The position numbers and the translations under genes were made by a program. From the NCBI GenBank assembly GCA_043228905.1, contig JBHGNT010000007.1:5394001-5458000 (forward strand): 64,000 nt of DNA. The letters run 5' to 3'. A model generated the notes under the pieces. That model was not told where the DNA came from. It ran no database searches and worked only from the letters and a program-made list of their open reading frames with translations. The stretch comes from Azolla caroliniana (Eukaryota; Plantae; Polypodiophyta). The first letter of the stretch is position 1. Every line of letters begins with the position of its first letter. Positions 1,958 through 20,300 of the stretch are shown piece by piece.

Positions 1958-2926
1958 TTATGCTGAATCCGGCCCCGATCGAACAATCCACGACTGGATT
2001 ACGCTCCACCCGTATCGGAGCGTCGCGTGGTTCGGTTCCCGGTCGGGTCGTTCCTTGGTCAAGAGGGCGTTTTGTTCCGCACCCTCTCCCGTGGTACCGT
2101 GGTACCGACCTTCCGTCATCGCGTGGGGCAAGTCCGTCTCCTCAGTCTCGGCTTGCGACCTTGATCTTTCCTCTTCCTCGAGCATCGCCTCGAGAGCTGC
2201 GTACGCCTTCGCAATCCTGGCCCCAACGCTGACCCTTGCCGACTCTCTTTGTTGTTCGGCCTCTTCTCGCTGTGATGGCATGCCGTCACGCGCCTTCCTC
2301 TTAGCCTTCTCGGCTCGCTCATTGTCTAGCCGTTGGCACACCCTTCCGACCTTCGACCAGTCCTCCGTAAGCCCATTCGCTCCGTCATCATCTTCGAGCT
2401 CAATCCCGATGGCGTCCCGTTCCGCTCGGTCGATCGACCTGACGAACAATAGAACTTTGTCCACCCCCACCAAACCTTGTTCCCGCTCCGGGAGCCGAGC
2501 AAGCCGTCGCTCAAACTCCCGGAACGCCTTCGTTGCGCCCCGGTGGGTCTTTGCCGATGCTACCCACTGGTCGAAGTCGTGCCGTCCCCGGCTCTTCCGC
2601 CGTCCTCCATATGCCTGCAGGAGCGCCTCTTCAAAGGCCTCCCACGAACTATGAGCTAGCCCGAGCTCCTTCACTTCCGCGTGCATACGGACGGCGACAG
2701 CCCGACAGAAGAACTCCAGCCTCAACGCTTCGTCCACGTCTCGCTCCTCCATTTCCGTGTTGTAGGCTTCCAAGAAAGATGGGACTTCGTCCCCGTTGAA
2801 ACGGCCGACTCTTTCGACCACTCGCTCAACCGCTTGTTGCGCTGCTTCTCGCCTCATCACCACTCGTGCCGACTCCAACACCACTTCGGCCACCATCTCC
2901 GCGAGGTCATCATCTTCTGGCTCCAT
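1958..2926 (-). CDS. Gag-like protein (322 aa) of the non-autonomous element
   Basis: ORF starts just after the PBS. Motif VGRFNGDEVPSFLEAYN...WEAFEEALL is homologous to the gag of the autonomous copy (IGRFSGKDATNYLASY, 27019-27588). Confidence 0.75.
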   Translation of the reverse strand: MEPEDDDLAEMVAEVVLESARVVMRREAAQQAVERVVERVGRFNGDEVPSFLEAYNTEMEERDVDEALRLEFFCRAVAVRMHAEVKELGLAHSSWEAFEEALLQAYGGRRKSRGRHDFDQWVASAKTHRGATKAFREFERRLARLPEREQGLVGVDKVLLFVRSIDRAERDAIGIELEDDDGANGLTEDWSKVGRVCQRLDNERAEKAKRKARDGMPSQREEAEQQRESARVSVGARIAKAYAALEAMLEEEERSRSQAETEETDLPHAMTEGRYHGTTGEGAEQNALLTKERPDREPNHATLRYGWSVIQSWIVRSGPDSA

Positions 2927-2942
2927 CCTCCCTTGCCGCCTT

Positions 2943-2959
2943 TCACGTCGGGTTCACCA
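2943..2959 (-). promoter_or_regulatory. Primer binding site complementary to tRNA-Trp
   Basis: Minus strand TGGTGAACCCGACGTGA, 4 nt from the LTR edge. Variants recur at 19386-19402 and 27611-27627. Confidence 0.8.
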
Positions 2960-3260
2960 AATATGTCGCGTTGTTATGCGCGTGCGTGTAGAAAGGTGGG
3001 ACCACGGGGGTCCTGGACTAGGGAGTGACGGAGCGTAGGAAGTCGTGCTTCACCCTCTTCGGGGCACCCCAGGAGCACACCGGAAGCAACCGACCGAGAG
3101 AGACAAAGAGATGGAGACAGAGAGGGAGCGCGCGCTTGACACCGACTCACGCACACACACACACACACACACCGACCCGACTCACGCCCTTATGTGCAGG
3201 AACACAGGAAAGGGGAAGCACCCGACACCAATAGAGACACGAGTATACACAGACAGACGC

Positions 3261-4255
3261 AAAAGTATGTATTACAAGGGAAAGATTACAACCCTGACTT
3301 CGAGTCGGACCAAGCTAGGGTAGGTTACAACAACAGTCTGCAGCCAAGCCGCCGTCCGGGGAGCTCTCGAGCTCGTCACGCAGAGCGGGGTCTTGCACAA
3401 GAGACCGAGCGGGAACAACCCTCCACAGTCCACCCACACCGTGAAGAAGAGGAAGAAGAAGTAGAAGAACTAACCCTAAATCTAACGGTATACCCTCTAA
3501 CACAAGACACAAAAGTATGTATTACAAGGGAAAGATTACAACCCCGACTTCGAGTCGGACCAAGCTAGGGTAGGTTACAACAGCAGTCTGCAGCCAAGCC
3601 GCCGTCCGGGGAGCTCTCGGGCTCGTCACGCAGAGCGGGGTCTTGCACAAGAGACCGAGCGGGAACAACCCTCCACAGTCCACCCACACCGTGAAGAAGA
3701 GGAAGAAGAAGTAGAAGAACTAACCCTAAATCTAACGGTATACCCTCTAACACAAGACACAAAAGTATGTATTACAAGGGAAAGATTACAACCCCGACTT
3801 CGAGTCGGACCAAGCTAGGGTAGGTTACAACAACAGTCTGCAGCCAAGCCGCCGTCCGGGGAGCTCTCGGGCTCGTCACGCAGAGCGGGGTCTTGCACAA
3901 GAGACCGAGCGGGAACAACCCTCCACAGTCCACCCACACCGTGAAGAAGAGGAAGAAGAAGTAGAAGAACTAACCCTAAATCTAACGGTATACCCTCTAA
4001 CACAAGACACAAAAGTATGTATTACAAGGGAAAGATTACAACCCCGACTTCGAGTCGGACCAAGCTAGGGTAGGTTACAACAACAGTCTGCAGCCAAGCC
4101 GCCGTCCGGGGAGCTCTCGGGCTCGTCACGCAAAGCGGGGTCTTGCACAAGAGACCGAGCGGGAACAACCCTCCACAGTCCACCCACACCGTGAAGAAGA
4201 GGAAGAAGAAGTAGAAGAACAAACCCTAAATCTAACGGTATACCCTCTAACACAA
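3261..4255. repeat. 4 x 250-bp near-identical tandem duplication inside an LTR
   Basis: Unit starts aaaagtatgtattacaaggg at 3261, 3511, 3761 and 4011. The homologous LTR at 49502-50262 has one unit. Confidence 0.95.
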
Positions 4256-4867: not shown

Positions 4868-5111
4868 ATTATCGTCTTTGGAGGTCAAATATGACCTATG
4901 AGACCAAAAATATTACATTTCACGTGATACGTGTGAAAGTGTGTTGCCAATGGCATACAATGGGAAAGCTCTTCCAAACCAAATAATTAAATATGTATTT
5001 TAGAAGGGTCATGAAGAAAGTGATTTTTGAACCTTTTCTTTACGAAAGAATGTAAATACCACTAGGATAAACTATTTCATATATAAAATAAGTATATTTA
5101 TAACAATATAG

Positions 5112-5136
5112 GGGTAAAAGCATGCGAGTGGAAACA
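5112..5136 (+). repeat. Left terminal inverted repeat (25 bp)
   Basis: Reverse complement of 15646-15670 with one mismatch; preceded by ATAG. Confidence 0.92.
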
Positions 5137-5590
5137 CTATTATAGCTAATTAGCTACTAAAATGGCCATAGCTAATTACCTATTTGTTTAGCTAGTCTTT
5201 TTTGTGGGAAAATGAAATATTTGAAAAACTAATTTATGAAAAAACTCAAATATTTGAACTTCTGTTTCAGACGTAGTGGAACTTGGGGAATAGCACCATC
5301 ATCTAAGGTCGACTTCAATGTCATCAATTTCCTGTTTAGCCTAAGTCTGATTTTGAACGCAGATGGAGTACTTAGAGCACGAACGCAGACGTAGCTCCCG
5401 CAACAGCAGAAAATCGACATTGCAGATTGAGAGCTACAACACAGAACCCGCTCGATCATCGTCCAGGTATGTTTCAGTTACAGAAACCCCAAATATTTGT
5501 TTTTTCTTTTTGACTATTGTCTGAACTTTGGTGCCGATTCATATTTCCCCAAAATCGAATAGGGCGAAGTCCTTGGAGTCCCATACAAGG

Positions 5591-8500
5591 ATGTCTCGCA
5601 AATCGGGGAGTAGCAACAGGTGTGTTTATATTACTTTTTTTGTGTTTAATCCTGTCTTTAGTGATGATTGGGGTTTTTGATTGAAATTCTGATTAGGGTT
5701 TTTGTTTATAAATTTCTGATTAGAATTTCTGATTAGGGTTTGTGATTGAAATTTCTGATTATGGTTTCTGATTGAAATTTCTGATTAGGGTTTTTGATTA
5801 TAAATTTCTGATTAGAATTTCTGAATAGGGTTTTTGGTTACAAATTTTGATTATAGATTAGAATTTCTGAATAAGGTTTTTGTTTATAAATTTCTGTTTA
5901 GGATTTCTGATTAGGGTTTGTGATTGAAATTTCTGATTAGAATTTCTGAATAAGGTTTCTGGTTACAAACTTCTGATTACAGATTTTGATTAGGGTTTTT
6001 GATTTCAAATTTCTGAATACAAATTATGATTAGGGTTTCTGATTTGCTAAGTTAAAGATTTTGCACCATTTTTGTTGTTGTTGATTGGGGTTTTTGATTC
6101 TCACATATTCTGATTTTGCACTATTTCTGATTTCTGAAATGATATTTCAGATGGCTCGTTCCTCCGTATACGAGAGTGCTAAACTTCGCAAAATTTTGCG
6201 AGACAAAGGATGACTTCCACAACACCTATGGTTTGTCACTCGAGGGTGTTGACCCTGCTGTCCTAAGTGATAAATTGATCAGTGATGTAGACTGGATGAC
6301 AGTATATACAGTGCCTAGAGTCAAAGGCAAGGTCAAGCTGAAGCATGTACGAGCTAACTTGTACGATGACTGCATGAGACTGCACCAGAAAGTTCATCAG
6401 GAGATCCTAGTCAACAATGAGTTGACAGTTTCATTTGCTAGAGCATTTGCATATGAGTACTGCAAAACAACGAAGGAATCTAGAGACCCTGAAATGTATA
6501 GGGTAGCTTGGGCAGTCTATGGTGAGGCATCGGTAAAAAGATGCCGAAAGATGGGGACCTTGGCACAAAAAATAGACAGATTTTGGAGCATGGCAGCTGT
6601 TGATGCAACTGCTGACTCCCAGCAAGACCGGGGGCATACACCACACCGACACCCAAGGAAAGCCAATGTCGATGATACAGGTGAGACATTGGTTAGCTAT
6701 ATGCTAAAAAATGTCCATGAAGCCTGTGAGACATTGGCATTTTTTAAGACTGATTTAGAGAAAGCCACAATGGCTTCTACAATGGAGAGCAAAGTTACTT
6801 CCGCTGTTACAACAATTAGAAATAAGATTCAGGTAACTATTGTTTTGCTGGTATGTGATTGTGTTATAAATAACGGGTAAAATGTGCTAATCAAGCATTA
6901 TCTGGAATAGGTTGCGCAATAGGAGCTTGAATTAGAGGGGCCACTGGATCCCCAGCGTAAAATAGAACTGCAAATAGAGATCCAGGTTCTTTCAATGAAC
7001 CTGGACCTTCTAGGTGTAAATACTGTTGCAGATTACAATTTGGATAAGCTTCAAGTAAGTTAACGATTCCTGAGCAAAGTTGGTGTATCTTTCAACAACA
7101 AGAATAATTAATCGGTAAATTTCTCTGTTGCGTTGAAGGAACAATACATTAATCAAGAACAGGTAGTTAGCTGCCTTAAGAAGCAGCTACATTTTGTGGA
7201 GGGAATGGTAAGGACCAGACATGATTTGAACCTGAACATTCTTGCTCCCTTACCAAATGAAGTAGAACCAGAAAATGATTTATTGACAGTACAAGCACTT
7301 TGCATCGCTTGCGGGTTAGGTGTGGAGGACAAAACTGCGTCTTTGTTGGTTCACCTACAACCATGCAACCACACATACCATCTGCTTTGTTTTCAACATG
7401 CCTGTCGAATTGCTGCATTCTGTTTGGGAGATTGCAGTACAACTCTACCAAATGAGTGGAGAAAACTAACAGGTATACCATACTGTAGCTAATAAGCTTA
7501 GTCTTTTCTAATTAGCTATCCTAGTAGCTAATTAGCTATGGTACTAGCTAATTAGCTAGTACCATAGTTGTGTAAAAAAGCTAATTAGCTATCCTACTAG
7601 CTAATTAGCCACTGGCAACTAATTAGCTATCCTAGTAACTAATTAGCTACTGCCATAGTTGTGTAAAGTAGCTAATAAGCTATCCTAGTAGCTAATTAGC
7701 TATGGTACTAGCTAATTAGCTAGTACCATAGTTGTGTAAAAAAGCTAATTAGCTATCCTACTAGCTAATTAGCTATCATAGTAGCTAATTAGCTACTGCC
7801 ATAGTTGTGTAAAGTAGCTAATAAGCTATCCTAGTAGCTAATTAGCTACTGGCAGCTAATTAGCTATCCTAGTAGCTAATAAGCTATCCTAGCTACTACA
7901 TAGTTGAGAAAGTAGCTAATTAGCTTTCATTGTAGCTAATTAGCTATCCTACTAGCTAATTAGTTATCCTAGCTACTACCATAGTTAGTAAAGTAGCTAA
8001 TTAGCTATCCTAGCTACTACCATAGTTGAGTAAAGTAGCTAATTAGCTATCCTAGCTACTACCATAGTTGAGTAAAGTAGCTAATTAGCTACCATAGTAG
8101 CTAATTAGCTATCCTAGCTACTACCATAGTTAGTAAAGTAGCTAATTAGCTATCCTAGCTACTACCATAGTTGAGTAAAGTAGCTAATTAGCTATCCGAG
8201 CTACTACCATAGTTGAGTAAAGTAGCTAATTAGCTATCCTAGCTACTACCATAGTTGAGTAAAGTAGCTAATTATCTACCATAGTAGTTAATTAGCTATC
8301 CTAGCTACTACCATAGTTGAGTAAAGTAGCTAATTAATTAGCTATCCTAGCTACTACATAGTTGAGAAAGTAGCTAATTAGCTATCCTAGCTACTACCAT
8401 AGTTGAGTAAAGTAGCTAATTAGCTACCATAGTAGCTAATTAGCTATCCTAACTACTACCATAGTTGAGTAAAGTAGCTAATTAGCTATCGTACTAGCTA

Positions 8501-9146
8501 ATTAGCTATCCTAATTAGCTATCATACTAGCTAATTAGCTATCCTAGCTTCTACCATAGTTTAGTAAAGTGGCTAATTAGCTATCCTAAATAGCTGCCAT
8601 GTTATTGTAGAATCTTGTGGATTAAGGACGGCACATGATGTGTCTGGTGCTGATGACGTTGCAACAGATGAGGATACTACTGCCAACGTGGCTGAAAGTA
8701 AGAGTCCTGCTATCACATCTCCTTTAGATCAACTCCACCCTATTCTTTTGGAACAGTGTACTGAATTAGGCAACGATGTGAAATGCCATGAAATAGTGGA
8801 AAAAACATGTAAAACTGAGGTTCACAACAACAGTGTTTATGAACACTTGATGCAACATTTCTTCGAGTCTCAAGACCTTGATTCCACCCCACCGAGCCCA
8901 ACTACTGAAAATGTCCAAACAGATCCCTCTGTACTTGAAAAGCTAGTTCAAGAAACGGCTGATGTGCAATTAGCTGCTGAGGCGATGGGAAGGTTGTCGG
9001 AGGAGGACACACTTGCGCATTGGGTGAAAGAAGCAAGGCTAAATGGGGAACCAACCAGAAAAAGGCTGAAGAAGGGGCCACGATCGGGAACAAGACCAGT
9101 TACTCGGTCAAGGGGCCCAGACGTAGTGGAGCGAAATACTGTTTAG
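5591..9146 (+). CDS. Transposon accessory gene, isoform 1 (~570 aa): unknown N-terminal domain, helical/coiled region, RING-H2 finger, acidic tail with a basic NLS-like end
   Basis: Predicted exons 5591-5619, 6151-6832, 6923-7054 (or from 6911, which includes a TAG), 7139-7472 and 8611-9146. All introns are GT-AG and phases match (2,0,0,1). RING-H2 pattern CIAC...CNHTYHLLC...CLGDC in 7300-7440. Confidence 0.72.
5660..6135. repeat. Degenerate tandem repeat (ttctgattagggttt...gattgaaat) in intron 1 of the accessory gene
   Basis: Repeated ATTAGGGTTT / TTTCTGATT units between donor 5620 and acceptor 6150. Confidence 0.8.
7486..8595. repeat. Array of the palindrome TAGCTAATTAGCTA (higher-order ~42-bp unit) in intron 7473-8610
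   Basis: Dozens of copies, e.g. unit tagctaattagctatcctagctactaccatagttgagtaaag. Confidence 0.95.
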
Positions 9147-9395
9147 TTGGATATGATTGTTAGCTTAGGGATTTTGCTAGGGTTTTATGAAGTTTTACTA
9201 TCCTGTTGGACAAGTAAAACCTCAGATTGGTTGTTGCTTGATCCACATTATGTAATGGAACTCTATGATGTTTTTCCAAGATAATTTGAAGAGTGTTGTT
9301 CTATGACTGAAACTCTTTGATGTTCAGGATATTGTTTTGTGAGACTGTTAGTTACTTTGTGAGTGTGAATATGTTGGTGTTTTCTGATGTTGCAG

Positions 9396-10450
9396 AGTCT
9401 AAAGGGTTTGATTCTATTGCTCGTAAGGCCAATGGCAGTGTGGATACTGTTGATATTGCTGCATGTTTAAAGGGCCCCATCTTGAAAGTAGATGTAGCAA
9501 CTGACACAAGTGATCTGGTCACACAAGTTGATCAAGCATGTAGCACAGATGACTTGGTGTTGCAGGTAGATGCAGCATGTAGCACGGATGACTTGGTGTT
9601 GCAGGTAGATGCAGCATGTAGCACGGATGACTTGGTGTTGCAGGTAGATGCAGCATGTGATACCAGTGGACTGATATCGAGCAGATCAGTAGCTACATGC
9701 ACCGAGGTAATCCAAGGATTGATAACTAAGTCGACAAAACAAGAGCACCAGAATGTGAAGCCAGGCCCAACACAGTCGACTAGGGGTTTGAAGAGGAAAA
9801 GGACGCCAGTTGTGTCGGCCGAACCTGAGCTGATTGAGATTGATCGTATCCTACCAGAAAATGGTGTAACAGCGGCTCAGTTTCAGGAATGGAAACCTAA
9901 ACCACTAGAAGTCGAAAGAAGAGCCTTGATCTTGGAGCTTGATAAAGTCTTGATGAGTGTGAGATATATGCAGCCAAGGAGGGACGCGAATCAGTTTCTA
10001 GAGTGGGCTGTGGAATACTTTGATTTGTTTATTTGGAGTGAAAAACCAAAATCAGATGTGTGGAAGTGTTTGGCAAGATTCTTCCCAAAATGGCGAAGTC
10101 GTTTTAAAGGTCAATGGGCACGAGAAAATTGTGAGCAAATGGAAGCTGCAAGATTCAAGAGACTTTCTGATTTTTGGGCTACTTGGCCTGAATATAATGC
10201 CGACAATACATTGATTTTGGATACAGAACATTTCCGGCACTACTTTAATATTCGGAGATGCTGTCTCATTCTACCTGAGGAAATGCCTGAACAGTACCTG
10301 GTGCAAACAGTGAGCTGCCAACTAGGTGCATGGTTGTGGACTCCATACCGAGCTCGATATGCGGATAATATATGTAGACTCGTTCCACTGACTAGCAAGA
10401 GCTTAACTGTTTATAGGAGATTTGTAGACATTTCCAATGGTAATTTATAA
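9396..10450 (+). CDS. Exon encoding 13-aa repeats and an FCP1/NIF-like (HAD) phosphatase domain with a degenerate catalytic motif; probable alternative last exon of the accessory gene
   Basis: Lies within ORF 9317-10450; acceptor ttgcag at 9395, phase 1. RRALILELDKVL...PRRDANQFLEWAVEYFDLFIWS...WARENCE...KRLSDFW...YNADNTLILD resembles the NIF/FCP1 domain, with DxDxT changed to ELDKV. Confidence 0.68.
9517..9660 (+). repeat. 39-bp coding tandem repeat (STDDLVLQVDAAC, 3-4 copies)
   Basis: gcatgtagcacggatgacttggtgttgcaggtagatgca repeated in frame. Confidence 0.9.
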
Positions 10451-10797
10451 ATATGTAAAGAGATGACATTATTCAACGAAGAATTTAATTACTTGTTCCC
10501 ACTGTACTTATCTACTGTGTAATTTGAGGAATATGTTGCAGATTGTTGATTTCATGCTATTGATGACTATTTAGCTATTGACAGCTAATTAGCTGCATTT
10601 GTACAGCTAATTAGCTACTGATGACTATTTCGCTATAACTTATAACTTAAAACTTAACAAAAAAGACATGATTTTATTGAGAAAGAAGCACAGAAAGCAG
10701 ATTGTATACAAGAAATTGATTCCAAACGAATTTATTTAACTGTTTTCGCGAAATACATGTTTGTTTTACAAGAGAACATGGTAAGTGCTACTTGTAG

Positions 10798-13700
10798 CTA
10801 CAAATTCCATGACATACTATTGTAAATACATTCATACACATTAGCACCAACAGTGTATAAACCGGAGCAGCTATTGTATTCTGACATTGGGACGTTGATG
10901 CACCTGACCAAATGAGAGTACATATACGCCGCTGGTTTGTCTTCTAACAGCCTGTACACATATTCGTAGTCATCTAGTTTTGCATAAAAAATGCCTTCGA
11001 TGTAGAATGTCCCGGCAGATACAAAATTTCCCCATGCATCTACAATATTCTGCCTTGCACACTGTTTACTAACCGTGCACTTTAATATATAGAAATCAGC
11101 ACCCTCTGAATTGCCTTCTTCAGCATTTACAGCGAAGTTATCCCCAACGTTCAGGACATCACTCAAAGTATCTCCAAGTCCCTCATATGTGAAGTCAGCA
11201 TTCTGCCCTGTTTCTCCATCAACTGCTTCCTTATCATTCAGAGTGTGATACTCCCAATTCTGAATGTATGCTTTGTTTAGACAATATCTCCAATTTCCCT
11301 GCACACAATGGAAGCAAAAACAAGTCAATTCTCTAACCGCAATACAATGACCATCCAACCTGGAATAACCGCGAACAACATGCAGAGATCGCAATTCGGG
11401 AATTCCTTGGCACTCCCAGGTCTTCTCCCTATTTACTTCATCTATCTTCACTTCCCAAAATTCACGTTTGTTATCTCGGACTTGTGAGGAATAAACACCT
11501 GTGGCACTCGTTGACATATTTGTTCTTAAAAATTCAACTACATGTGATGCACAATTCATGTGCACACCATCTGTCTTTAGTTGTTCATGGGTAAGTGCCC
11601 GCTTTATAACAGCCCCTGCACCATCATGTTCACCTTTACCATGGCCAGACCCAAAAAAATTCCATCTCATCTCCAAACCTGTTATAGCAGGATACCTCCC
11701 CACAAAATAAAATGGACGTCGAGCCTTGAATTGTGACGCAGCTCCGTCAGACTAGACCCAATGTTGAGTAAGCTCCAAATGTTGAGCTAATAACCACTGC
11801 CAATGTAACTTAAAACAGTGTTGGACGAACAAGGTATCATGCTTCTTATCATCGGAAATAAAGAAATGAATTACTTTTTTAACATCACCTGAAACTCGAA
11901 AATATGTTATGTGCACAAAAATGGTTACCTGAACTGAACACCAATGCATAGATTGAATTTCATTCTGTTGCTTGAAAGTATAATTCTCTGCGAAATCTAC
12001 TACTGAGACTACTACATCATTTGGGAAATCAGATATGCAAGTCTTAAACTGATGGGCCTGCCATGAATAAATGAAGTTGTGTTTAATGAACTTTCCTAGA
12101 GATACTACAAACAGAGACACCAAATCCCTTGGTTTAAGCATCTTCCGAACTAGATCCTTTCTTTTACACACCTTTCCTTCGAAATTGGTGTTCATTGACT
12201 CAAATAACTTCACAGAGATCAATATTTCACTACTCAATTCATTTGGACAACACCTAAATCTAGTAGGGCCACAATCTTGACATAAACCCATGACACATTT
12301 ATGAATATGGAAGATAGCGTCAGTTTCTCTCGGACACAATATTGAATCTAATAAATAACTCATGGAAGAGATAACGTGCTCATATGATTTACACTCCTCT
12401 TGTGGGCTTGATCGACAGATTGGGCACCCACATGTGCAAACTGTATTAGTTAGGGATGCGCTATGGTGACGTAGTAGATTAACAGAGTCCTTCAGAAAAC
12501 CCATCTGTACATGGTAAATGCAACAACATGTGTATCGATCCTTTAAGCGTCTCACAAAGTGTGGCTTAAGAGACTCGAATGTTCGTAGTTGAACTTTGAT
12601 AGTTGGATGCATTCGTTTGAACCTAATAAATAAATCGACCTGCGTAATAAAGGGGAATTAGTTATTCTCGTAACTAGCTAACTATCCTAGTAGCTAATTA
12701 GCTATTCTAGTAGCTAATTAACTATTCTAGTAGCTAATTAGCTATTCTAGTAGCTAATTAGCTGTCCTAGTAGCTAATTAGCTGTCCTAGTAGCTAATTA
12801 GCTGTCGTAGTAGCTAATTAGCTATCATGGTAGCTAATTAGCTGCTCTAGTAGCTAATTAGCTATCATGGTGGCTAATTAGCTTTCCTAGTAACTAATTA
12901 GTTGGTCTAGTAGCTAATTAGCTATCATGGTAGCTAATTAGCGGGTCTAGTAGCTAATTAGCTATCATGGTGGCTAATTAGCTGTCCTAGTAACTAATTA
13001 GCTATCATAGTAGCTAATTAGCTATCATGGTAGCTAATTAGCTGGTCTAGTAGCTAATTAGCTATAATGGTGGCTAATTAGCTGTCCTAACTAATTAGCT
13101 ATCATGGTAGCAAATTAGCTGGTCTAGTAGCTAATTAGCTATCACGGTGGCTAATTAGCTATCCTAGTAAGCTAATTAGCTATCATGGTAGCTAATTAGC
13201 TTTCCTAGTAGCTAATTAGCTGGTAATAGCGAAATAGCAAACTAGCTACCAGTATAGCTAATTATCTGGTAGTACCTAAATTAGCTATTGAGAATAGCTA
13301 ATTAGCTATCATGGTAGTAGCTATTGAGAGTAGCCAGTTACCTATGTAGTAGCTATCATAGTAGCTAATTAGCTATCATGGTAGCTAATTAGCTTTCCTA
13401 GTAGCTAATTAGCTGGTAATAACAAAATAACTAACTAGCTACCAGTACAACTAATTATCTGGTAGTACCTAAATTAGCTATTGAGAATAGCTAATTAGCT
13501 ATCATGGTAGTAGCTATTGAGAGTAGCCAGTTACCTATGTAGTAGATATCCTAGTAGCTAACTGAGGTAAATGTAACTGATAAGCTAATTAGCTTTTCTG
13601 CTAATTGAGCTAATTAACTTTCTGAGTAGAGTCAAAACAAATGTTGAGATAAATGTAAATACCTGAGGTACATCAAGAAGATGAATGGGATGCTCCTCGT

Positions 13701-14412
13701 ATTGATTTCTTCCAACACGTTTCCTGCATAAATCCTTTTTATTGGGTGAAACCCTACTCTCATTAGTCCAAAACATTGTGATTACATCCTTGATTTCAAA
13801 TGTTATGGGTGTCATTGGCTTACATCTTGTAGTTAGCTTTAGTAGACTAGTTCCTTCACCCGAGGAAATTATACGGTTCATTGTATTGTACACTGTTTTT
13901 CTACTAACACCAATTACCTTAGATAGCTCACTGATGTTTATATCGTCAACATCACTATTAAGTAACATCATTAGACTAGACCTTTTTAAGACAAGATCAT
14001 CTTCTGACCTGCTCATGGATACGAAACTATTACGCAGATTATTTACTAAAATAGATGATATGTTTGCATTAAGACCATCACAATCAACTAAGTCCTTTAT
14101 CGATGGATCATTACATATTCCATAAAGTACTACCTTCTTTTCTTCATTGCTGATGTGCTTGGTTTGAACATTGAAATAGTCTACAACCTTTCTCTCTATG
14201 ATGGTAGTCGCATTACTTACATTCTCATCTAAACTATCCTTACCTTTACTGAGTGTGGCTTTCGTATCCTTCAACAATTGACGATGTTTCCTTTTTTTTT
14301 CTGCCCAATAGTTTCGTATGGCTTGTTGTGTCTTGATAACATCATCCCTATCCTTATGATCATTGAGGGGTAATTCTAAACACCCTTCTTCCCCTTCCAT
14401 TTGGCTGGACAT
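10798..14412 (-). pseudogene. Sola2-type DDD transposase, two exons (~863 codons), one premature stop
   Basis: Exons 14412-13663 and 12639-10798, joined by GT-AG phase-0 intron 13662-12640 (LLDVPQ|VDLFIRFKRMHP). Motifs TCCCIYH, VDFAENY, WV*SDGAASQFK (TAG at 11752-11754, likely from TGG), FFGSGHGKGEHDGAGAVIKR and C-terminal CFCFHC. Confidence 0.85.
12656..13618. repeat. Second TAGCTAATTAGCTA palindrome array (20-bp unit) in the transposase intron
   Basis: tagctaattagctattctag-type 20-mers in tandem, entirely within intron 12640-13662. Confidence 0.95.
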
Positions 14413-14746
14413 GTTAAAACCCTAAATTTCCAGAAAAAAAAACAAGTATTAAAGATGGCTATGGGCAACAACAATACACAAAAATATTCCACAATACACA
14501 AGATTAGACACAACAATACACAAGATAATCAATAGAAAGAAAAGTTATTGCAATCCAAGACCGAACAGTAGAGGATTTCACTCCGTTGGATCGAACAGTT
14601 GAGGAGACGATCCAAGACCGACCAATGGCAACAACTGAGTGTAGAATGTTGCCGTTGGATGAGTGAACTCCGTCAACTCGAAATGTGGAAGCAATCCGGG
14701 ACTGGACAATAGCGGCAACTGAGTATAGAATGATGGTAATGGAGGA

Positions 14747-15317
14747 GAGAACCCCGTCAGATTAAACAGTTATCGATGATGCTTGGAACGCACATAGAAG
14801 GCACCTGAGAGTAGAGTGGCACAAAGAAGAGAACCCCTTCAGATTGAACAGTTACCAATGATGCTTGAAACGCACAGTAGCGGCCCCTGAGTGAGAGTGG
14901 AAAAGAGAAGAGAACCCCGTCAGATTGAATAGCTCTTTGATGATGCTTGGAACGCACAGTAGCGGCCCCTTGAGTGTAGAGTGGCAAAGAGAAGAGAACC
15001 CCGTCAGATTGAACAACTCTTTGATGATGCTTGGAACGCACAACAGCGGCCCCTGAGTGTAGAGTGGCACAGAGAAGAGAACCCTGTCAGATTGAACAGC
15101 TCTTCGATGATGCTTGGAACGCACAATAGTGGCCCCTAAGTGTAGAGTGGCACAGAGAAGAGAACCCCGTTAGATTGAACAGCTCTTTGATGATGCTTGG
15201 AATGCATAGTAGTGGCCCCTGAGTGTAGAGTGTCACAAAGAAGAGAACCCCGTCAGATTGAGCAGCTCTTTGATGATGCTGGGAACGCACAGTAGCGGCC
15301 CCTCAGTGTAGAGTGGC
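14747..15317. repeat. 7 x ~83-bp tandem repeat upstream of the transposase
   Basis: Unit starts gagaaccc at 14747, 14829, 14910, 14994, 15077, 15160 and 15243. Confidence 0.93.
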
Positions 15318-15645
15318 GGCAGGTGGACTCGATAGGGTTTAGCAACAGTGGTAGCAACTAACCCACAGTACTCAACTAGAGATGGCCTACGTGATGTGGC
15401 AAAGGATCATGCATAATGGACCTAGGAATTCGATATATAATTTATGGTTCACATTTATGGTGCACACATCAATTTATGTTGCACATTTATGGCACTCATT
15501 TACATATGTAATTAAAACACTCTAGTATTTTCAATGGTAGTTTTTTGCATATTTAATTTATTAATGATGGCTTTTTATTAAAATGACTATTTATCAATGG
15601 TAGCTTTTTGCATAGTTAATTAGCTATTTCAAGGACATAGCTAAT

Positions 15646-15670
15646 TGTTTCCACTCGCATGCTTTCACCC
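15646..15670 (-). repeat. Right terminal inverted repeat (25 bp)
   Basis: Reverse complement of 5112-5136; followed by ATAG. Confidence 0.92.
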
Positions 15671-16064
15671 ATAGTCAAATAACCATTATATGTAAACAAA
15701 GCATGAGAGACAAATGACGTCATGCTCTTAAGCTCTTAGTTCATGTGAGACCCTATATAAAGGGACTCTTTTCTTATGTAAAGAGGAAAAAAAAGGGGAG
15801 AAGAGAGAAGAAGAAGAAAGAAAGATATATTAACGTCTTCTAAGGCCAAAATTGGCCCATGAGACAAATTCCTATTTTCCGAGAGGCATTTGTAAAGCTT
15901 AAAAATGTTTTAAAGAATCTTTACAACCACATGCAAATAAAACATTTTCACAGTAACAAAAAATGGGATATTTACCCATTCATCGAAAGTAAAAATTAAA
16001 AATAAAAAAAAAGATAAAAATAGAGTTGTAAGCTAAATAGTTCTAGTAAAATAACAAACATGTT

Positions 16065-17210
16065 CTATATAAGAAACATGTTTTGCAATGAAAATGATGT
16101 TATACTAGGCCTAATTTCATTTCCATCCAAGTCTCTCGAAGAGAAGCGGGAGGTCAAAGGGTTTCGATGTGGATGTGGCCGTGGTCCCAATGTAAAAGGT
16201 ACCCCAACCATAACTTCTAGTCGACGTAGCTCACATTCCCTTATCTTCTTAATCTTTTCTACTCCGTGCCGACTTGTTTTGAAGCCCAACATCTGAGGGT
16301 GTTTGGTTGTTCTTTGCATTTCTGCTTCCTCAAGAGAGAGGCCAAGCGGCATAAGTGTATCCACATTCATCGTCTCCCCTTGTTCCTGAAAAATTACACT
16401 AGTTACATGTTGATGAATAGCAAAAGGGTTATGGTTAACACTTTGTAATTTATTCTCCCTATGTTGTTTTAGCTCTAAGATATACCTACCCAGTCCCTTT
16501 ACATCCGGGGTATCTAATAGTTTGGAGAGGGTGGGAGAGGGTCCTAATATGTCTTGGTATTCCGCCCGTATCTTGGCATAAGTTGGCCACTTGCATGTTA
16601 AGTGATACTCATCCTCTATCTCTATGTGGCATAACCTACATAGCCTTTCCTCTCTAGGGACTCTATTAGCTCGACCATTCTCAATCTCAAGTTGGTGAGA
16701 TGATATCCTAAGTTGTCCAATGGTCACCCTTAGTGCATTTGATAAGAATGTATCTAGATATCTTGGTCGTGTAATAAAACCTAACTTAGAGAAGTGCAAG
16801 AAGTGTTCCTTATAATACAACATTTTAGATGGGAGTGGTTCTCGTGGGGTGATCCATTTATATCAAGTGTAAATTTGCCATATTTCTTGGCGTATCACTT
16901 TATTACAGTCTTCATGAGAGATTAGAGTTTGATCAATCCCATGGTTGTACTTAAGGGGAGGTAGGTTATTAATGTCTATGCCGTTTGCAAGTAACCAACT
17001 CACCACAATGCTATACCAAGAGCTAGTGTCTCCCGATGCATGTAGTGATCGGGATGCCTCAAAGGCTCGACGGGATATCCTATCTTGTGGTTGGCTATGT
17101 ATATGATCAATAAAAACTACCACTTGAAAAAGTGATTCTACTAACATCGGGGGGAGAATGAACTTTGCTCTAATAATGTCATGTGGTACTGTCAATTTGC
17201 TTCGGAGTTG
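16065..17210 (-). pseudogene. 3' fragment of a non-LTR retrotransposon (LINE) ORF2
   Basis: LRISSHQLEIENGR...REERLCRLC...EIEDEYH...Y..IR is the post-RT Cys/His region of LINE ORF2. Truncated on its 5' side by an LTR insertion at 17215. Confidence 0.75.
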
Positions 17211-17214
17211 ACGT

Positions 17215-17303
17215 TGTCGCAGTAATTCGCGAGTACGTGTAGAAAGGGGCGGGACCACGTGGGTCTCGGACGAGGAAGAGATGGATGTCGAGAAGCCGAC
17301 TCT
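17215..17303 (-). mobile_element. LTR fragment of the Trp-primed family
   Basis: Reverse complement of the LTR end at 19295-19381; preceded by acgt; cut off at 17303. Confidence 0.7.
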
Positions 17304-20300
17304 TGTTGTCCACTGGAATAGTAACCGACGAACAGGAGTGCAGAAATATAGAATATAGTAAAAATGTAACGCATGTAAACGATTCACGCGGGAAGTGTGA
17401 ACGGCTAAAAGACCTTGTGTATATAAAGGGCAAAAATCCTCTGATAGAGGTAGCGTGTAAATTTGAATGCAGAAAGTGTATCTTAATAGAGTTCTATCTT
17501 CTCTGATCCCTGTGCGTATTTGTGATTAATCTACTGTGTGTCTGTGATTCTTGGTGGCGTAGCATAATTGTAAGATCGTAGGCGTGAGTGACAGTGTGGT
17601 TACTAGTGCACTGTCTAAGGAGTTTGGTTGTAGCCGTCTCCCTTCTACGCTACTAGGATACAGGAAGTATCCCATTAAGTATTACGGTATGACTGTACCA
17701 TTCATTGCAACGCAGTCACTTTGAGGTCTAGGTCGAAGGATTGACTGTAGACCGTGTTCCTAATCGGTAACACTTTTGGCACACTTGGTGATCTGTGTCT
17801 CCTCACAGACGAACAACGACGAATGGATGTTTAGCCGCAGACATCCCAGAGAACCAACACGACAAGACCGACCAATCACACGGTCCATCACACGCCAGGC
17901 AGAGGAACGCGCACGACAGAAACCTCGCCTCAATGACCTCAGTGATACCTGTCGGAACCACAAAGACGATTTCTCGCTCCCCAAATACCTCATCGACAAG
18001 CAAGAAGTGCGCTCACCACATAAGCACTGTGGTCTTTCCCTGCCCACCGTAGTGTCCAGCATGGCCTTCTCTTATCCCCACTTCAACGGCGAAACTGACG
18101 CCGCAACCCACATTCGACTGTTCCTGAATGTCTGGAATGCAAATCACATGGCACAGAGACTTTCCAAAGAAGTAGCGCACCAGTCCAAAATGATAGAGTT
18201 CAGATTAACCCTGGATGGGAGAGCAACGTTTTGGCATTCGTAGATGCATCTACTAGCAATCACGACCTTCGACCAGCTGTAATCGGCCTTTCTGCGTTTC
18301 TTTCATCGGAGGGTGCCGCAACACGAAATCCTTGGGCAGTTTTATACAATTAAATAGTTGTCGGTTAAGACTGTAGCGGATTTTAATTTACGCTTCCAAA
18401 ATCTACGACGGAAATTAAAACGGGGCCCGACAGAGGACGAGGCTCGGGAGACATTTCTGGCAGCTTTACGACTACCAATACGGACGACGCTTAACAACAA
18501 TAGCGTGAAAGGAGAAACGAGCGCTACAACTTGAGCTAGATGAAGAAGAGGAAAGGTTTTCGGTGTCCTCATTACGGCAAGCGTTGTTGTGAAGATTTCC
18601 GGCTATAGAGTAAAACCAGGGTGGAAAGGGCAAGTCGGTGGTGTGCAACATGTGCACATCTATAATAGGAAACGATGTATAGAATAAGAGGGAGTATTTA
18701 TCCCACATTGTAACGCCCTCCCCTCCTTGGTCTATAAAAGGAGGGAGGGGTCTCTTGTGAAAGGGTTGCCCATTTTGAGTTAGGGAGGGTATACCACTTA
18801 GGTCTAGGGTTTGGTAGTGTTCTTCCTCTTCCTCTTATTCTTGTTTCCTTAGGGTTTCTACTTTGGTCTTTTCACTCTATTTCGTTTAGGGTTTATTCTT
18901 CTCCTTCGTGTCTGTTTAGGGTTTAGCTCGGTGAAGAGCTTGTATGTTCAGTGGGGTTTGCTTTTGCTCGGTCTCTTGTGCAAGACCCCGCTCGGCGCGA
19001 TGAGCCCGAGAGCTCCCTGATCGGCGGCTTGGCAACAAATGGTTGTTGCAATCTAATCTACCTTGGTCCGGCTCGAAGCTAACATTGTATCTTGGTCTTG
19101 TATTTTTATATATATAAAGGGTTGTGCGTATTTGTGTCTATGTTGGTGTCGGGCGCGTTCCTTTCCCTTTGTTTCCTGTACATAAGAGGCATGTGTTGAG
19201 TCGGTATTGCGCGCGTAGTCTCTCTCTCTCTTCCTCTCTCGTGTTCGGTAGCCGTCGGTACGCGCCACGACTAGTGCAACCGGGATTGGAGAGAAGTCGG
19301 CTTCTCGACACCCATCTCTTCCTCGTCTGAGACTCCCATGGTCCTGCCCCTTCCTACATGTACCCGTGGATTACCGCGATATCTTTGGTGAACCCAACGT
19401 GAAAGGGCGGCAAGGGAGAATGGAGTTGGAAGAAGACAGCTTCGCACAACTTTTTCTCGAAGCGGTGAGGGAGTTTGGACGAGCAACAACAAGAAGAGAG
19501 ACGACACAACAAGCTATTGAGCGAGTGGTCGAAAGAGTCGGCCGTTTCAACGGGGACAAAGTCCCATTCTACTTGGAAGCCTACAATGTGGAAATGGAGG
19601 AGCGAGGCGTAGACGAGGCATTGAGGCTGGGTTCTTCTGTCGGGTTGTCGCCGTCCGCATGCACGCAGAAGTGAAGGAGCTCCGAGAAGCTCATAGTTCG
19701 TGGGAGGCCTTTGAAGAGGCGCTCCTGCAAGCATATGGAGGACGACGGAAGAACTGGGGATGATGTGGCTTCAACTAGTGGGTGGCATCGGCGAAGACCC
19801 ACTGGGGCGCAACGAAGGCGTTCTGAGAGTTTGAGCAATGGCTTCGTCGGCTCCTGGAGCGGGAGCAAGGTTTGGTGGGGGCGGACAAAGCCCTATTGTT
19901 CGTTAGGTCGATTGACCGAGTGGAACGGGAGGCCATCGGGATTGAGCTCGAAGACGAGGACGGAGCGAATGGCCTTATGGAGGACTGGTCGAAGGTTGGA
20001 AGGGTATGCCGACGAATAGATGACGAGTGAGCCGATAGAGCTAGGTGGAAGGTGCACGACGACGCGCCATCACAGCGGGAAGAGGGCGAGCGGCAAAGAG
20101 AGTCGGCAAGGCTCGACTTCGGGGCCAGGATTGCGGAGGCATACGTAGCTCTCGAGGCAATGGTCGAGGAAGAGGAAAGATCGAGGCTGCAAGCTGACGC
20201 CGAGGAGATGGACTTGCCCCACGAGATGGCAGAAGATCGGTACGATGGTGCCTTGGGAGAGGGTGCGAAGCAAGCGACCCTCTCGACTTGCAGAGAAAGA

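What the first reader, a model, noticed from the sequence alone, without database searches (positions are those of the whole stretch)
5591..10450. Transposon-borne RING-H2 gene with two alternative last exons, one an FCP1-like pseudo-phosphatase
Seen: the scattered ORFs join into one gene through phase-compatible GT-AG introns. The RING exon ends in phase 1 at 7472. Two downstream acceptors are both phase 1 and begin alike: 8611 (E-S-C-G, acidic tail, ~570 aa) and 9396 (E-S-K-G, 13-aa repeats plus NIF/FCP1-like domain, ~743 aa). Established: RING-H2 domains are typically E3 ligases, and FCP1/SCP phosphatases act on phospho-substrates such as the Pol II CTD and need DxDxT, here ELDKV. Inference: one isoform could couple a catalytically dead phospho-substrate reader to a ubiquitin ligase, acting as a transposon-encoded anti-silencing or regulatory factor. 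I know of no such cargo in Sola elements.
Basis: partly seen in the sequence, partly recalled or inferred. Interest (0 to 1): 0.82.

Follow-up and report, generated by a model that had tools for sequence, protein, structure and literature searches.

The report
Transposon carrying RING and dead phosphatase
A 10.6-kb cut-and-paste jumping gene, likely from a fern or another seed-free plant, carries a spliced extra gene for a predicted ubiquitin-ligase (RING) protein followed by a likely dead phosphatase exon and 64 copies of its own DNA palindrome, a set that would likely let the element shield itself from host silencing, although splicing of the RING part to the phosphatase part is untested and this copy is broken.

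Summary
The element is real: a Sola2-type DNA transposon at 5112-15670 (25-bp TIRs, ATAG duplication), with a transposase on the minus strand and a cargo gene on the plus strand. Spliced contigs of related copies show two cargo junctions (5619^6151, 6832^6911). All eight RING-H2 zinc ligands are invariant across homologs only 21-38% identical. Exon B folds as an FCP/SCP-type HAD domain with Glu at the nucleophile. The order N-domain, coil, RING, acidic tail, NIF recurs in a family of at least 69 Adiantum gene models, so this is maintained cargo, not a one-off capture. Not shown: neither 7472^8611 nor 7472^9396 was seen; I put RING-to-B splicing at about 55%. The phospho-CTD-reader idea is weakened: the domain comes from a DxN-motif subgroup and lacks about 23 residues where Scp1 builds its CTD pocket. 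New here: 64 phased TAGCTAATTAGCTA palindromes confined to the element's non-coding DNA, a VANDAL-like layout. I found no report of this cargo.

The parts
5108..5111 (.). Left target-site duplication, ATAG
   Evidence: Same four bases follow the right TIR
5112..5136 (+). Left terminal inverted repeat, 25 bp, starts GGG
   Evidence: 24 of 25 identical to the right TIR; a related end lies in L002
5591..5619 (+). Cargo coding exon 1 (ATG; phase-2 donor)
   Evidence: Joined to 6151 in one contig of run X1; ATG and donor kept in the 69%-identical copy L002
5620..6150 (+). Intron 1 with degenerate 13-bp repeats and seven telo-box (AAACCCTA) matches
6151..6832 (+). Exon 2: conserved N-terminal domain of no known family (about residues 15-135 of the exon), then start of a predicted helical or coiled region
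   Evidence: 36% identity over 124 aa to Adiantum P0043, E 1e-21; pN/pS 0.32 and 0.35 on listed differences to X3 and X1; no Pfam, PDB or Atlas match
6833..6910 (+). Intron 2, 78 nt
   Evidence: GT..AG joint in one X1 contig
6911..7054 (+).
   Evidence: weak similarity to the Adiantum coil region, 33 of 1000 shuffles as high
7055..7138 (+). Intron 3, 84 nt, predicted
   Evidence: GTAAGT donor and AG acceptor; five of X3's six indels fall here; junction not seen in RNA
7139..7472 (+). Exon 4 with RING-H2-type finger at 7301-7435 (C-x2-C-x17-C-x-H-x2-H-x2-C-x10-C-x3-C); phase-1 donor
   Evidence: Eight ligands invariant in 12 of 12 aligned rows; coordinates; Pfam RING hits below cut-off, E 0.03-0.18
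7473..8610 (.). Intron 4 holding 34 copies of the palindrome TAGCTAATTAGCTA, mostly 20 or 42 bp apart
8611..9146 (+). Exon A: acidic tail (17.5% D+E) ending in a basic, NLS-like cluster and a stop; predicted default last exon
   Evidence: held in order with the A-B gap by X3 contig 15; junction not seen
9147..9395 (.). A-B gap, T-rich and CpG-free; in-frame ATGs at 9320 and 9371; donor-like GTGAG motifs at 9339 and 9359
   Evidence: alignable with L002
9396..10450 (+). Exon B: acidic stretch with 13-aa repeats (9535-9658), KRKR at 9791-9802, FCP/SCP-type HAD domain about 9899-10369 with ELDKV at 9935-9949
   Evidence: acceptor CAG|AG kept in L002; pN/pS 0.28 on listed differences to X3
10798..12639 (-). 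Transposase exon 2 with Sola2-type motifs; premature stop at 11752-11754
   Evidence: copies in X1 and X3 differ at 11753; P0195, 96% identical with 34 members
12640..13662 (-). Transposase intron holding 26 copies of the palindrome, predicted
   Evidence: GT..AG, phase 0
13663..14412 (-). Transposase exon 1 with helix-turn-helix; spliced model 863 aa
   Evidence: HTH_11 E 6.6e-5, below the curated cut-off
15646..15670 (-). Right terminal inverted repeat
15671..15674 (.). Right target-site duplication, ATAG

Best explanation
This is a broken copy of a multi-copy Sola2-type transposon whose spliced accessory gene encodes a predicted nuclear RING ubiquitin ligase that likely acts on the element's own palindrome arrays to keep it active, with a likely dead phosphatase exon that would serve as an optional protein-binding tail. 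Shown: the element's bounds; transcription and splicing of exons 1-3 in related copies; conservation of the N-domain, the eight RING ligands and the HAD fold; recurrence of the gene order in fern families; the palindrome arrays. Inferred steps: (1) exon 4 splices by default to exon A, giving N-domain, coil, RING, acidic tail and nuclear signal (about 85%). (2) Read-through past A's 3' end lets the same donor, or a donor inside A, reach exon B, adding a second acidic tail, a nuclear signal and the pseudo-phosphatase (about 55%). (3) The helical N-domain or the transposase docks on the phased palindromes (about 50%). (4) The RING ubiquitinates a chromatin or silencing factor at those sites, and the dead HAD domain acts as a Tim50-like binding surface that widens or changes target choice, not as a Pol II CTD reader (about 40% overall).
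For: TIR/TSD bounds. Two spliced junctions in X1. All six indels of the X3 copy lie in predicted introns 2 and 3 (162 nt), none in exons 2-4. pN/pS 0.28-0.35, binomial p 0.007-0.015, on listed differences. RING ligands invariant at 21-38% identity, and 10 of the 12 PDB sequence hits are RING-H2 E3 chains of RNF38/RNF165/ARK2C, all weak, E 0.09-0.66. HAD model pLDDT 88.5, Z 16-17 to SCP/Tim50/UBLCP1. Window and Ceratopteris form a 100/99 clade sharing Glu at motif I, the deletion and D-T/S at motif IV. 69 Adiantum clusters carry the N-domain/coil/RING region; 16 of the 21 models with a detected RING also carry NIF; P0043 joins RING straight to NIF; a second family (P0077) has RING, acidic linker, basic cluster, NIF in the order of isoform B. 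64 palindromes, 0 in exons, 0 in 53 kb of flank, 0 of 100 shuffles; this matches VANC target layout in introns and ends (PMC5735166, passages).
Against: Only 1 of the 16 Adiantum RING-plus-NIF models skips the A-like tail; 15 run through it, and all are pipeline predictions whose RNA support I could not see. An in-frame ATG eight codons before acceptor B is kept in L002 and in close copies. The RING's last pair is C-x3-C without the usual Pro and is followed by an invariant Ser, where many E3 RINGs have Arg (the rule is recalled). Pfam RING scores are under the cut-offs. One related fragment, P0082, reads DLDKV, a complete catalytic motif, and the first motif-IV Asp, the motif-II Ser and the motif-III Lys are kept. 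No Adiantum transposase hit had a locus tag next to a cargo model, so the Adiantum families are not shown to ride on Sola elements. Palindromes also flank both TIRs and may be plain transposase sites. Exon A is not detectably homologous to the Adiantum tail (839 of 1000 shuffles as high). This copy has stops in both genes.
Confidence: 0.4

Rival explanations
1. Two separate accessory genes: a RING gene ending in exon A, and a stand-alone pseudo-phosphatase gene starting at ATG 9371 (or 9320) from its own start site in the A-B gap. The two proteins may still work together in trans.
For: ATG 9371 is in frame and kept in L002 and in 14 close protein fragments, a set biased by gene calling. Many NIF relatives are on record without a RING, though mostly from short contigs called without splicing, plus Ceratopteris models. 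No junction from 7472 seen.
Against: 9396 is the most T-rich of the 28 open phase-1 acceptors downstream of 7472 and is kept as CAG|AG in L002. The gap is T-rich and CpG-free like the introns. ORFs of four other NIF sublineages begin with a hydrophobic stretch then Ala/Thr-Gly/Asp, as expected from reading through a phase-1 acceptor (P0024, P0035, P0046, P0191; inference from protein). P0077 and P0043 are fused models.
Confidence: 0.3
2. The cargo is a transposition cofactor, not an anti-silencing factor: the finger and coil dimerise or bind DNA, the palindromes are transposase sites, and any ubiquitination serves transpososome turnover or repair, as proposed for the RING of RAG1 and Chapaev transposases.
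For: RING fingers occur in RAG1 and two Chapaev subgroups (PMC4411706, passages). Palindromes sit next to both TIRs (5143, 5169, 15613) and the transposase has an HTH. The finger lacks some usual E3 features.
Against: 60 of the 64 palindromes lie in introns, far from the ends, which fits VANC-type sites better. The cargo is a separate transcript on the opposite strand, like the accessory gene of Sola1-1_Ec32 (PMC12477816, passages).
Confidence: 0.2
3. Passively captured host fragments (Pack-element style) decaying without function.
For: This copy has stops in both genes; L002 and many protein fragments are decayed.
Against: Purifying-selection signal and intron-only indels, invariant zinc ligands at 21-38% identity, and a 45-row clade (100/99) of diverged multi-copy NIF domains separate from the Morus host-type gene.
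Confidence: 0.05
4. One reading: the dead domain reads phosphorylated Pol II CTD and brings the RING to it.
For: FCP/SCP fold with the phosphate-binding Ser and Lys kept; top structural neighbours are SCPs (Z 17.0-17.3).
Against: SCP, Tim50 and UBLCP1 are tied within about 1 Z; the sequence profile prefers UBLCP1 (E 4e-14 against 2e-6 for SCP1); motif I to motif II spans 33 residues here against 55-59 in most relatives, removing the stretch where Scp1 has Phe106 and Val118.
Confidence: 0.05

Closest known systems
Sola2 DNA transposons, including Sola2-Fanzor1 elements of Dictyostelium and Polysphondylium (PMC3627910; passages and rows of supplementary file S10)
   Same: 4-bp AT-rich duplication, short TIRs, transposase of similar size (863 against 888 aa) with the same motif series, and a second passenger gene.
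   Different: The passenger there is a TnpB-like Fanzor; here it is a multi-exon N-domain/RING gene with a HAD exon. The duplication ATAG is not of the AWWT form given for those elements.
VANDAL21 / VANC anti-silencing system of Arabidopsis (PMC5735166; passages)
   Same: Accessory gene with variable exon structure and tandem peptide repeats; a short motif amplified as tandem arrays in introns and terminal non-coding DNA, absent from coding DNA.
   Different: VANDALs are Mutator-like; no sequence link to VANC was found (no DUF1985 or PMD hit); binding and demethylation are shown for VANC and untested here; the motif here is a palindrome.
Sola1-1_Ec32 of Ectocarpus and red-algal Plavaka elements with ParB/methyltransferase accessory genes (PMC12477816, bioRxiv 10.1101/2025.02.11.637652; passages)
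   Same: Large TIR element with an accessory gene on the strand opposite the transposase; inverted-repeat arrays proposed as self-binding sites (Plavaka).
   Different: Their cargo is ParB, DNA methylase, SET or 2OG oxygenase; 'phosphatase' does not occur in either main text and no RING accessory gene is described in the passages seen.
RAG1 and Chapaev transposases with a RING finger (PMC4411706; passages)
   Same: A RING finger travelling with a DNA transposon; RAG1's has ubiquitin-ligase activity.
   Different: There the RING is part of the transposase; here it is RING-H2 in a separate protein. That 2015 paper states RING fingers were unknown in other elements; a RING ORF in one aphid Mutator-like element was reported later (PMC6446971, passage).
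FCP/SCP (NIF, PF03031) phosphatases: SCP1-3, CTDNEP1, UBLCP1, Tim50, and the uncharacterised DxN group (Morus XP_024026493)
   Same: Same HAD fold (Z 14.5-17.3), motif II Ser, motif III Lys and first motif IV Asp.
   Different: Glu at the nucleophile; about 23 residues missing after motif I; nearest relatives have DxN/DxQ.

Membership tests
Sola superfamily / Sola2 | 4-bp target-site duplication | tested here: met
   ATAG at 5108-5111 and 15671-15674; feature from PMC10741241 and PMC3627910 passages
Sola superfamily / Sola2 | Terminal inverted repeats (11-1124 bp reported) | tested here: met
   25 bp, 24 of 25 identical; range. The 5'-GRG rule for Sola2 ends is recalled; the ends here start GGG
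Sola superfamily / Sola2 | DDD transposase with Sola2 motif series (DFAENY, SDD..H, SDG.A.Q.K, W.FF...HGK...DG.G) | tested here: met
   Motifs at residues 465, 512, 547, 576 of the 863-aa model, compared by eye with rows of the published Sola2 alignment
Sola2 versus Sola1 and Sola3 | Placement in a transposase tree with reference members of all three groups | not testable with these tools
   No named Sola references were available as sequences; Sola1 and Sola3 alignments were not seen
RING-H2 (C3H2C3) finger | Eight zinc ligands in C-C-C-H-H-C-C-C order with RING spacing | tested here: met
   Invariant in 12 of 12 rows; last pair spaced by 3-4 residues instead of 2
RING-H2 (C3H2C3) finger | Score above a curated RING profile cut-off or a cross-brace fold | tested here: inconclusive
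   Pfam E 0.003-0.18, under cut-offs; PDB profile hits E 0.09-0.66, nearly all RING; Atlas leads 0.81-0.83, all RING-type; no model of this exon was folded
RING E3 ubiquitin ligase | E2 binding and ubiquitin transfer | not testable with these tools
   Needs an assay; Ser follows the last Cys and the loop-2 Pro is absent (significance recalled)
FCP/SCP (NIF) HAD domain | PF03031 match and HAD fold | tested here: met
   30.8 bits against cut-off 21.8; pLDDT 88.5; Z 17.3, rmsd 2.6 over 147 residues to SCP2
Active FCP/SCP phosphatase | DxDx(T/V) with a nucleophilic first Asp | tested here: not met
   ELDKV; 0 of the 58 tree rows with a parsed motif I have DxDx(T/V); one fragment outside the tree, P0082, does; feature from PMC7281111
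SCP-type CTD binders | Hydrophobic pocket including Phe106 and Val118 in the insertion after motif I | tested here: not met
   Motif I to motif II is 33 residues against 55-59 in most relatives; Scp1 residue numbers
VANC-type anti-silencing factor | Short motif arrayed in the element's non-coding DNA | tested here: met
   64 palindromes, none in exons or flanks
VANC-type anti-silencing factor | Homology to VANC | tested here: inconclusive
   No Pfam family for the N-domain at E up to 10; its model was too poor to search (pLDDT 41)
VANC-type anti-silencing factor | Protein binds the motif and causes hypomethylation of its own family | not testable with these tools
   Needs binding and methylome experiments

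The most novel reading that the evidence does not exclude
A radiation of DNA transposons in ferns and kin encodes its own sequence-targeted ubiquitin ligase: a new DNA-binding domain docks on phased palindromes in the element's introns, a RING-H2 finger ubiquitinates host silencing or chromatin proteins there, and alternative 3' exon choice switches on a captured, catalytically dead HAD phosphatase as a swappable substrate receptor. It would be the first transposon anti-silencing system built on targeted ubiquitination rather than on DNA or histone modification enzymes.
Probability: 0.22. Interest if true: 0.88.

Novelty: new variant of a known kind. Interest (0 to 1): 0.6.

Why it matters
Only VANDAL/VANC is cited as a proven case of a transposon binding and modifying its own DNA (bioRxiv 10.1101/2025.02.11.637652, passage). 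A second plant design using a RING ligase, a new domain and a pseudo-phosphatase would show that transposons recruit the ubiquitin system against silencing, and the palindrome gives a ready binding test. Whatever the mechanism, many fern gene models annotated as 'FCP1 homology domain-containing' or hypothetical RING proteins (Ceratopteris, Adiantum) are likely cargo of mobile elements, which bears on counts of phosphatase and E3 family expansion in fern genomes.

Tried and rejected
No whole genome is held for this window, so copy number and full-length dN/dS could not be computed. The run search listed no holder on record as RNA; X1 was judged RNA only from its two spliced joints. X1 had no cover of 6981-7500 or of 9135-9539, and X4 had none of the cargo exons: absence of cover is not used as evidence. 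The two layings left out 7501-8594, so a junction from 7472 could only have shown as a loose end; none listed did, and 29 loose ends were not displayed. Exon 2 against proteins over 399 aa found nothing (0 of 1042 candidates), although P0043 is a clear relative, so that search is insensitive here. N-domain: no Atlas hit, no Pfam, no PDB sequence hit, AlphaFold pLDDT 41, so no fold search was run; my recalled idea of a link to PMD, DUF1985 or PF20167 got no support. Viral-contig scans: 0 of 14 and 0 of 2 candidates. Adjacency of Adiantum cargo models to a transposase by locus tag: none among three Adiantum hits of 118. Rejected: exon duplication as the origin of the two E-S-x-G starts (619 of 1000 shuffles), and homology of exon A with the Adiantum tail (839 of 1000) or the P0077 tail (103 of 1000). 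A first transposase splice model had wrong bounds and was corrected. The original Sola paper was not held. Look-ups of earlier findings by these words or sequence gave nothing. No complex prediction was run: no E2 reference is offered and neighbouring exons are not reason enough.


Full report
Element. The finding lies inside a cut-and-paste transposon at 5112-15670 (10,559 bp): 25-bp inverted repeats, 24 of 25 identical, flanked by ATAG on both sides. The minus strand holds a two-exon transposase model of 863 aa (14412-13663, 12639-10798) with a premature stop at codon 546. Its motifs match, by eye, rows of a published Sola2 alignment (PMC3627910 file S10). A 96%-identical transposase cluster has 34 members, and named relatives among the 118 hits come from a moss, a liverwort, two conifers and ferns. 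The host is not given; the nearest named relatives of the cargo are ferns, so a fern or other seed-free plant is likely (inference).

Gene structure. Run X1, whose kind is only guessed as RNA, gave two spliced contigs from related copies. One carries exon 1 ahead of 6151 (27 of 30 displayed letters match 5587-5616). The other skips 78 nt with GT..AG ends, 6832^6911. With it, this copy has a stop at codon 241; it may be rescued by the 6923 acceptor or be dead like its transposase. That second contig runs into unrelated sequence after 6954, so it comes from a truncated copy. No X1 contig covered the RING exon, and no junction from 7472 was seen.

Selection and copy number. In the DNA-like run X3, all six listed indels over 6050-7500 fall in the 162 nt of introns 2 and 3, none in exons. 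On the differences the tool listed (the best-supported subset: 40 rows in each call, with 152 and 560 more not shown), pN/pS was 0.32 (exon 2, X3; 11 synonymous, 13 not; p 0.007), 0.35 (exon 2, X1; 10 and 13; p 0.015), 0.28 (exon B, X3; 8 and 8; p 0.011) and 0.29 (L001; 3 and 3; p 0.13). X3 contigs hold exon A with the gap (8595-9403) and exon B with the transposase end (9613-11377). L003 has NIF facing a transposase end at 70-75% identity; L002 is a decayed copy that keeps acceptor B, a TIR and the exon-1 ATG and donor.

Homologs. Exon B found 99 representatives. P0043, an Adiantum nelumboides model, matches exon 2 (36% over 124 aa), exon 4 (34% over 95 aa) and the NIF domain. Its N-domain/coil/RING region found 69 clusters, all A. 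nelumboides. By motif census of all 69, 21 have a detectable RING: 15 continue through an acidic tail into NIF, 1 goes straight to NIF, 4 have the tail without a detected NIF motif (one of these, P0164, does hit NIF), 1 runs into a retrotransposon domain. The models diverge from each other just before the Arg-Trp where the window has its first acceptor, and just after the RING exon, where every next residue has a G-starting codon, as a phase-1 donor would give (inference from protein). A second Adiantum family, P0077, has RING, acidic linker, basic cluster and NIF in one model. These models come from a pipeline mixing homology, ab initio and RNA evidence (PMC9387920, passages); I could not see their DNA or read support. 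They show a conserved gene order, not a proven splice. No Adiantum transposase hit had a neighbouring locus tag, so their carrier is unknown. Exon A is only analogous to the Adiantum tail (acidic, then basic): 839 of 1000 shuffles scored as high; exon A and the start of exon B are also unrelated (619 of 1000).

RING. Cys55, Cys58, Cys76, His78, His81, Cys84, Cys95 and Cys99 of exon 4 are invariant in 12 of 12 rows at 21-38% identity. Profile hits are weak but consistent: Pfam RING families under cut-off, 11 of 12 PDB sequence hits RING proteins at E 0.09-0.66, Atlas leads all RING-type at 0.81-0.83 (lead only). The last pair is wider than usual and is followed by Ser. From recalled knowledge, that departs from the Pro and Arg of many E3 RINGs, so ligase activity is likely but not assured.

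HAD domain. The model is confident (pLDDT 88.5) and aligns with SCP2, SCP1, Tim50 and UBLCP1 at Z 17.3-16.2, tied, and Fcp1 at 15.1. The family profile prefers UBLCP1 (E 4e-14), which a reference title in PMC7281111 calls a 26S proteasome phosphatase. A tree of 64 rows (74 domains covered over 75% of the profile; 10 near-identical Adiantum rows dropped; midpoint root; long branches flagged) puts the window in a 45-row clade (100/99) with Ceratopteris, both Adiantum species and unnamed records, apart from the Morus host-type gene and unnamed DxN proteins. None of 58 parsed rows has DxDx(T/V); most read DxN. The window and Ceratopteris (100/99) share Glu at the nucleophile, a motif I-II span of 21-33 instead of 55-59 residues, and Thr or Ser after the motif IV Asp. 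Scp1's nucleophile is Asp96 and its CTD pocket uses Phe106 and Val118 (PMC7281111, passages), which fall in the missing stretch. So a dead enzyme is likely (loss of activity on Asp-to-Glu change is recalled), but a CTD reader is not. Against: fragment P0082 reads DLDKV, and Ser, Lys and one Asp of the site remain.

Palindromes. TAGCTAATTAGCTA occurs 64 times with at most one mismatch: 34 in intron 4, 26 in the transposase intron, 2 by the left end, 1 by the right end, 1 between the 3' ends; none in exons or in 53 kb of flank; 0 of 100 shuffles. Spacing is mostly 20 or 40-42 bp, near two or four helical turns. L003 has one copy. VANC21 binds a short motif arrayed in introns, intergenic and terminal regions of its element (PMC5735166, passages). 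The layout here is the same; which protein binds is unknown.

Mechanism. Most likely a nuclear accessory protein (N-domain, coil, RING, acidic tail, basic signal) acts at the element's own arrays and ubiquitinates a chromatin or silencing factor, with the dead HAD exon as an optional binding tail reached by alternative 3' exon use. Bounds, splicing of exons 1-3, conservation and arrays are shown; splicing to A (about 85%), splicing to B (about 55%), DNA docking (about 50%) and ubiquitination against silencing (about 40% overall) are inferred. Rivals: two separate genes (0.3), transposition cofactor (0.2), neutral cargo (0.05), CTD reader (0.05).

Literature. Ten searches of the open library listed no paper describing a RING plus FCP-type cargo in a DNA transposon; subscription journals and Repbase Reports are not covered, and the original Sola paper was not held. 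Seen as passages only: PMC4455052, PMC3627910 (supplement list 67; file S5 whole by mistake 62; file S10 rows 72), PMC5751038, PMC6446971, PMC7281111, PMC9387920, PMC12477816, PMC10741241, PMC5735166, PMC4411706, bioRxiv 10.1101/2025.02.11.637652 (supplements closed, and they, like the Ectocarpus supplements I did not open, may list other accessory genes). Precedents exist for Sola elements with passengers (Fanzor1, ParB-methylase), for RING fingers in transposons (RAG1, Chapaev, one aphid Mutator-like ORF) and for motif arrays (VANDAL, Plavaka).

Verdict. A real, maintained transposon accessory module with a domain set I did not find described; the headline splice is unproven, this copy is broken, and the CTD-reader step is unlikely. 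New variant of a known kind; interest 0.6.

Noticed in passing
window 7525-8583, 12691-13501, 5143-5182, 10604, 15613: 64 copies of the palindrome TAGCTAATTAGCTA, spaced mostly 20 or 40-42 bp, all in non-coding parts of the element; the motif has no CG or CHG site.
   Followed up: yes
window 9339 and 9359; L002 about 243-270: Two donor-like motifs (GTGAGA, GTGAGT) sit 57 and 37 nt before acceptor B and are kept in a 69%-identical copy. Splicing from ATG 9320 through the first would give a stop; they might instead influence 3' end choice after exon A.
   Followed up: partly
window 8697: A strong phase-1 donor (AAA|GTAAGA) early in exon A could give a third form, RING, 29 residues of A, then B.
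   Followed up: no
window 5620-6150; L002 1900-2056; L003 1-260: Intron 1 is built of degenerate repeats with seven telo-box matches; similar ATTAGGGTT arrays occur in L002 and L003.
   Followed up: partly
window 5467-5562: A further GT-AG intron is predicted in the 5' untranslated region; the X1 contig has 296 letters ahead of exon 2, more than exon 1 alone explains.
   Followed up: no
window 14742-15317: Seven copies of an 83-bp unit (88% matches) upstream of the transposase gene.
   Followed up: no
L002 1394-1493: A left TIR follows directly after the NIF exon, then exon 1 of a next unit: a tandem or rearranged derivative lacking the transposase.
   Followed up: partly
window 10096 and 11312-11314 (run X1): Two X1 contigs join the NIF exon to the transposase across a 1.2-kb gap without GT-AG ends: an internally deleted copy.
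   Followed up: no
P0032, P0035, P0046: Three NIF sublineages of the same clade carry long charged C-terminal tails, and two read NLNG at motif I: a second, independent loss of the nucleophile.
   Followed up: partly
window 1958-2953 (-), 3255-4255, 19252-20335: Flanking gag-like ORFs of LTR-retrotransposon type (label recalled; no Pfam hit for 1961-2953) and four tandem copies of a 250-bp unit at 99% identity.
   Followed up: no
window 16065-17525 (-): Two abutting ORFs that resemble the C-terminal end of a non-LTR reverse transcriptase (recalled; no Pfam hit).
   Followed up: no
P0299: A fish relative of the transposase is annotated as sentrin-specific protease 2, hinting that other Sola-type elements carry ubiquitin-like-pathway enzymes.
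   Followed up: no
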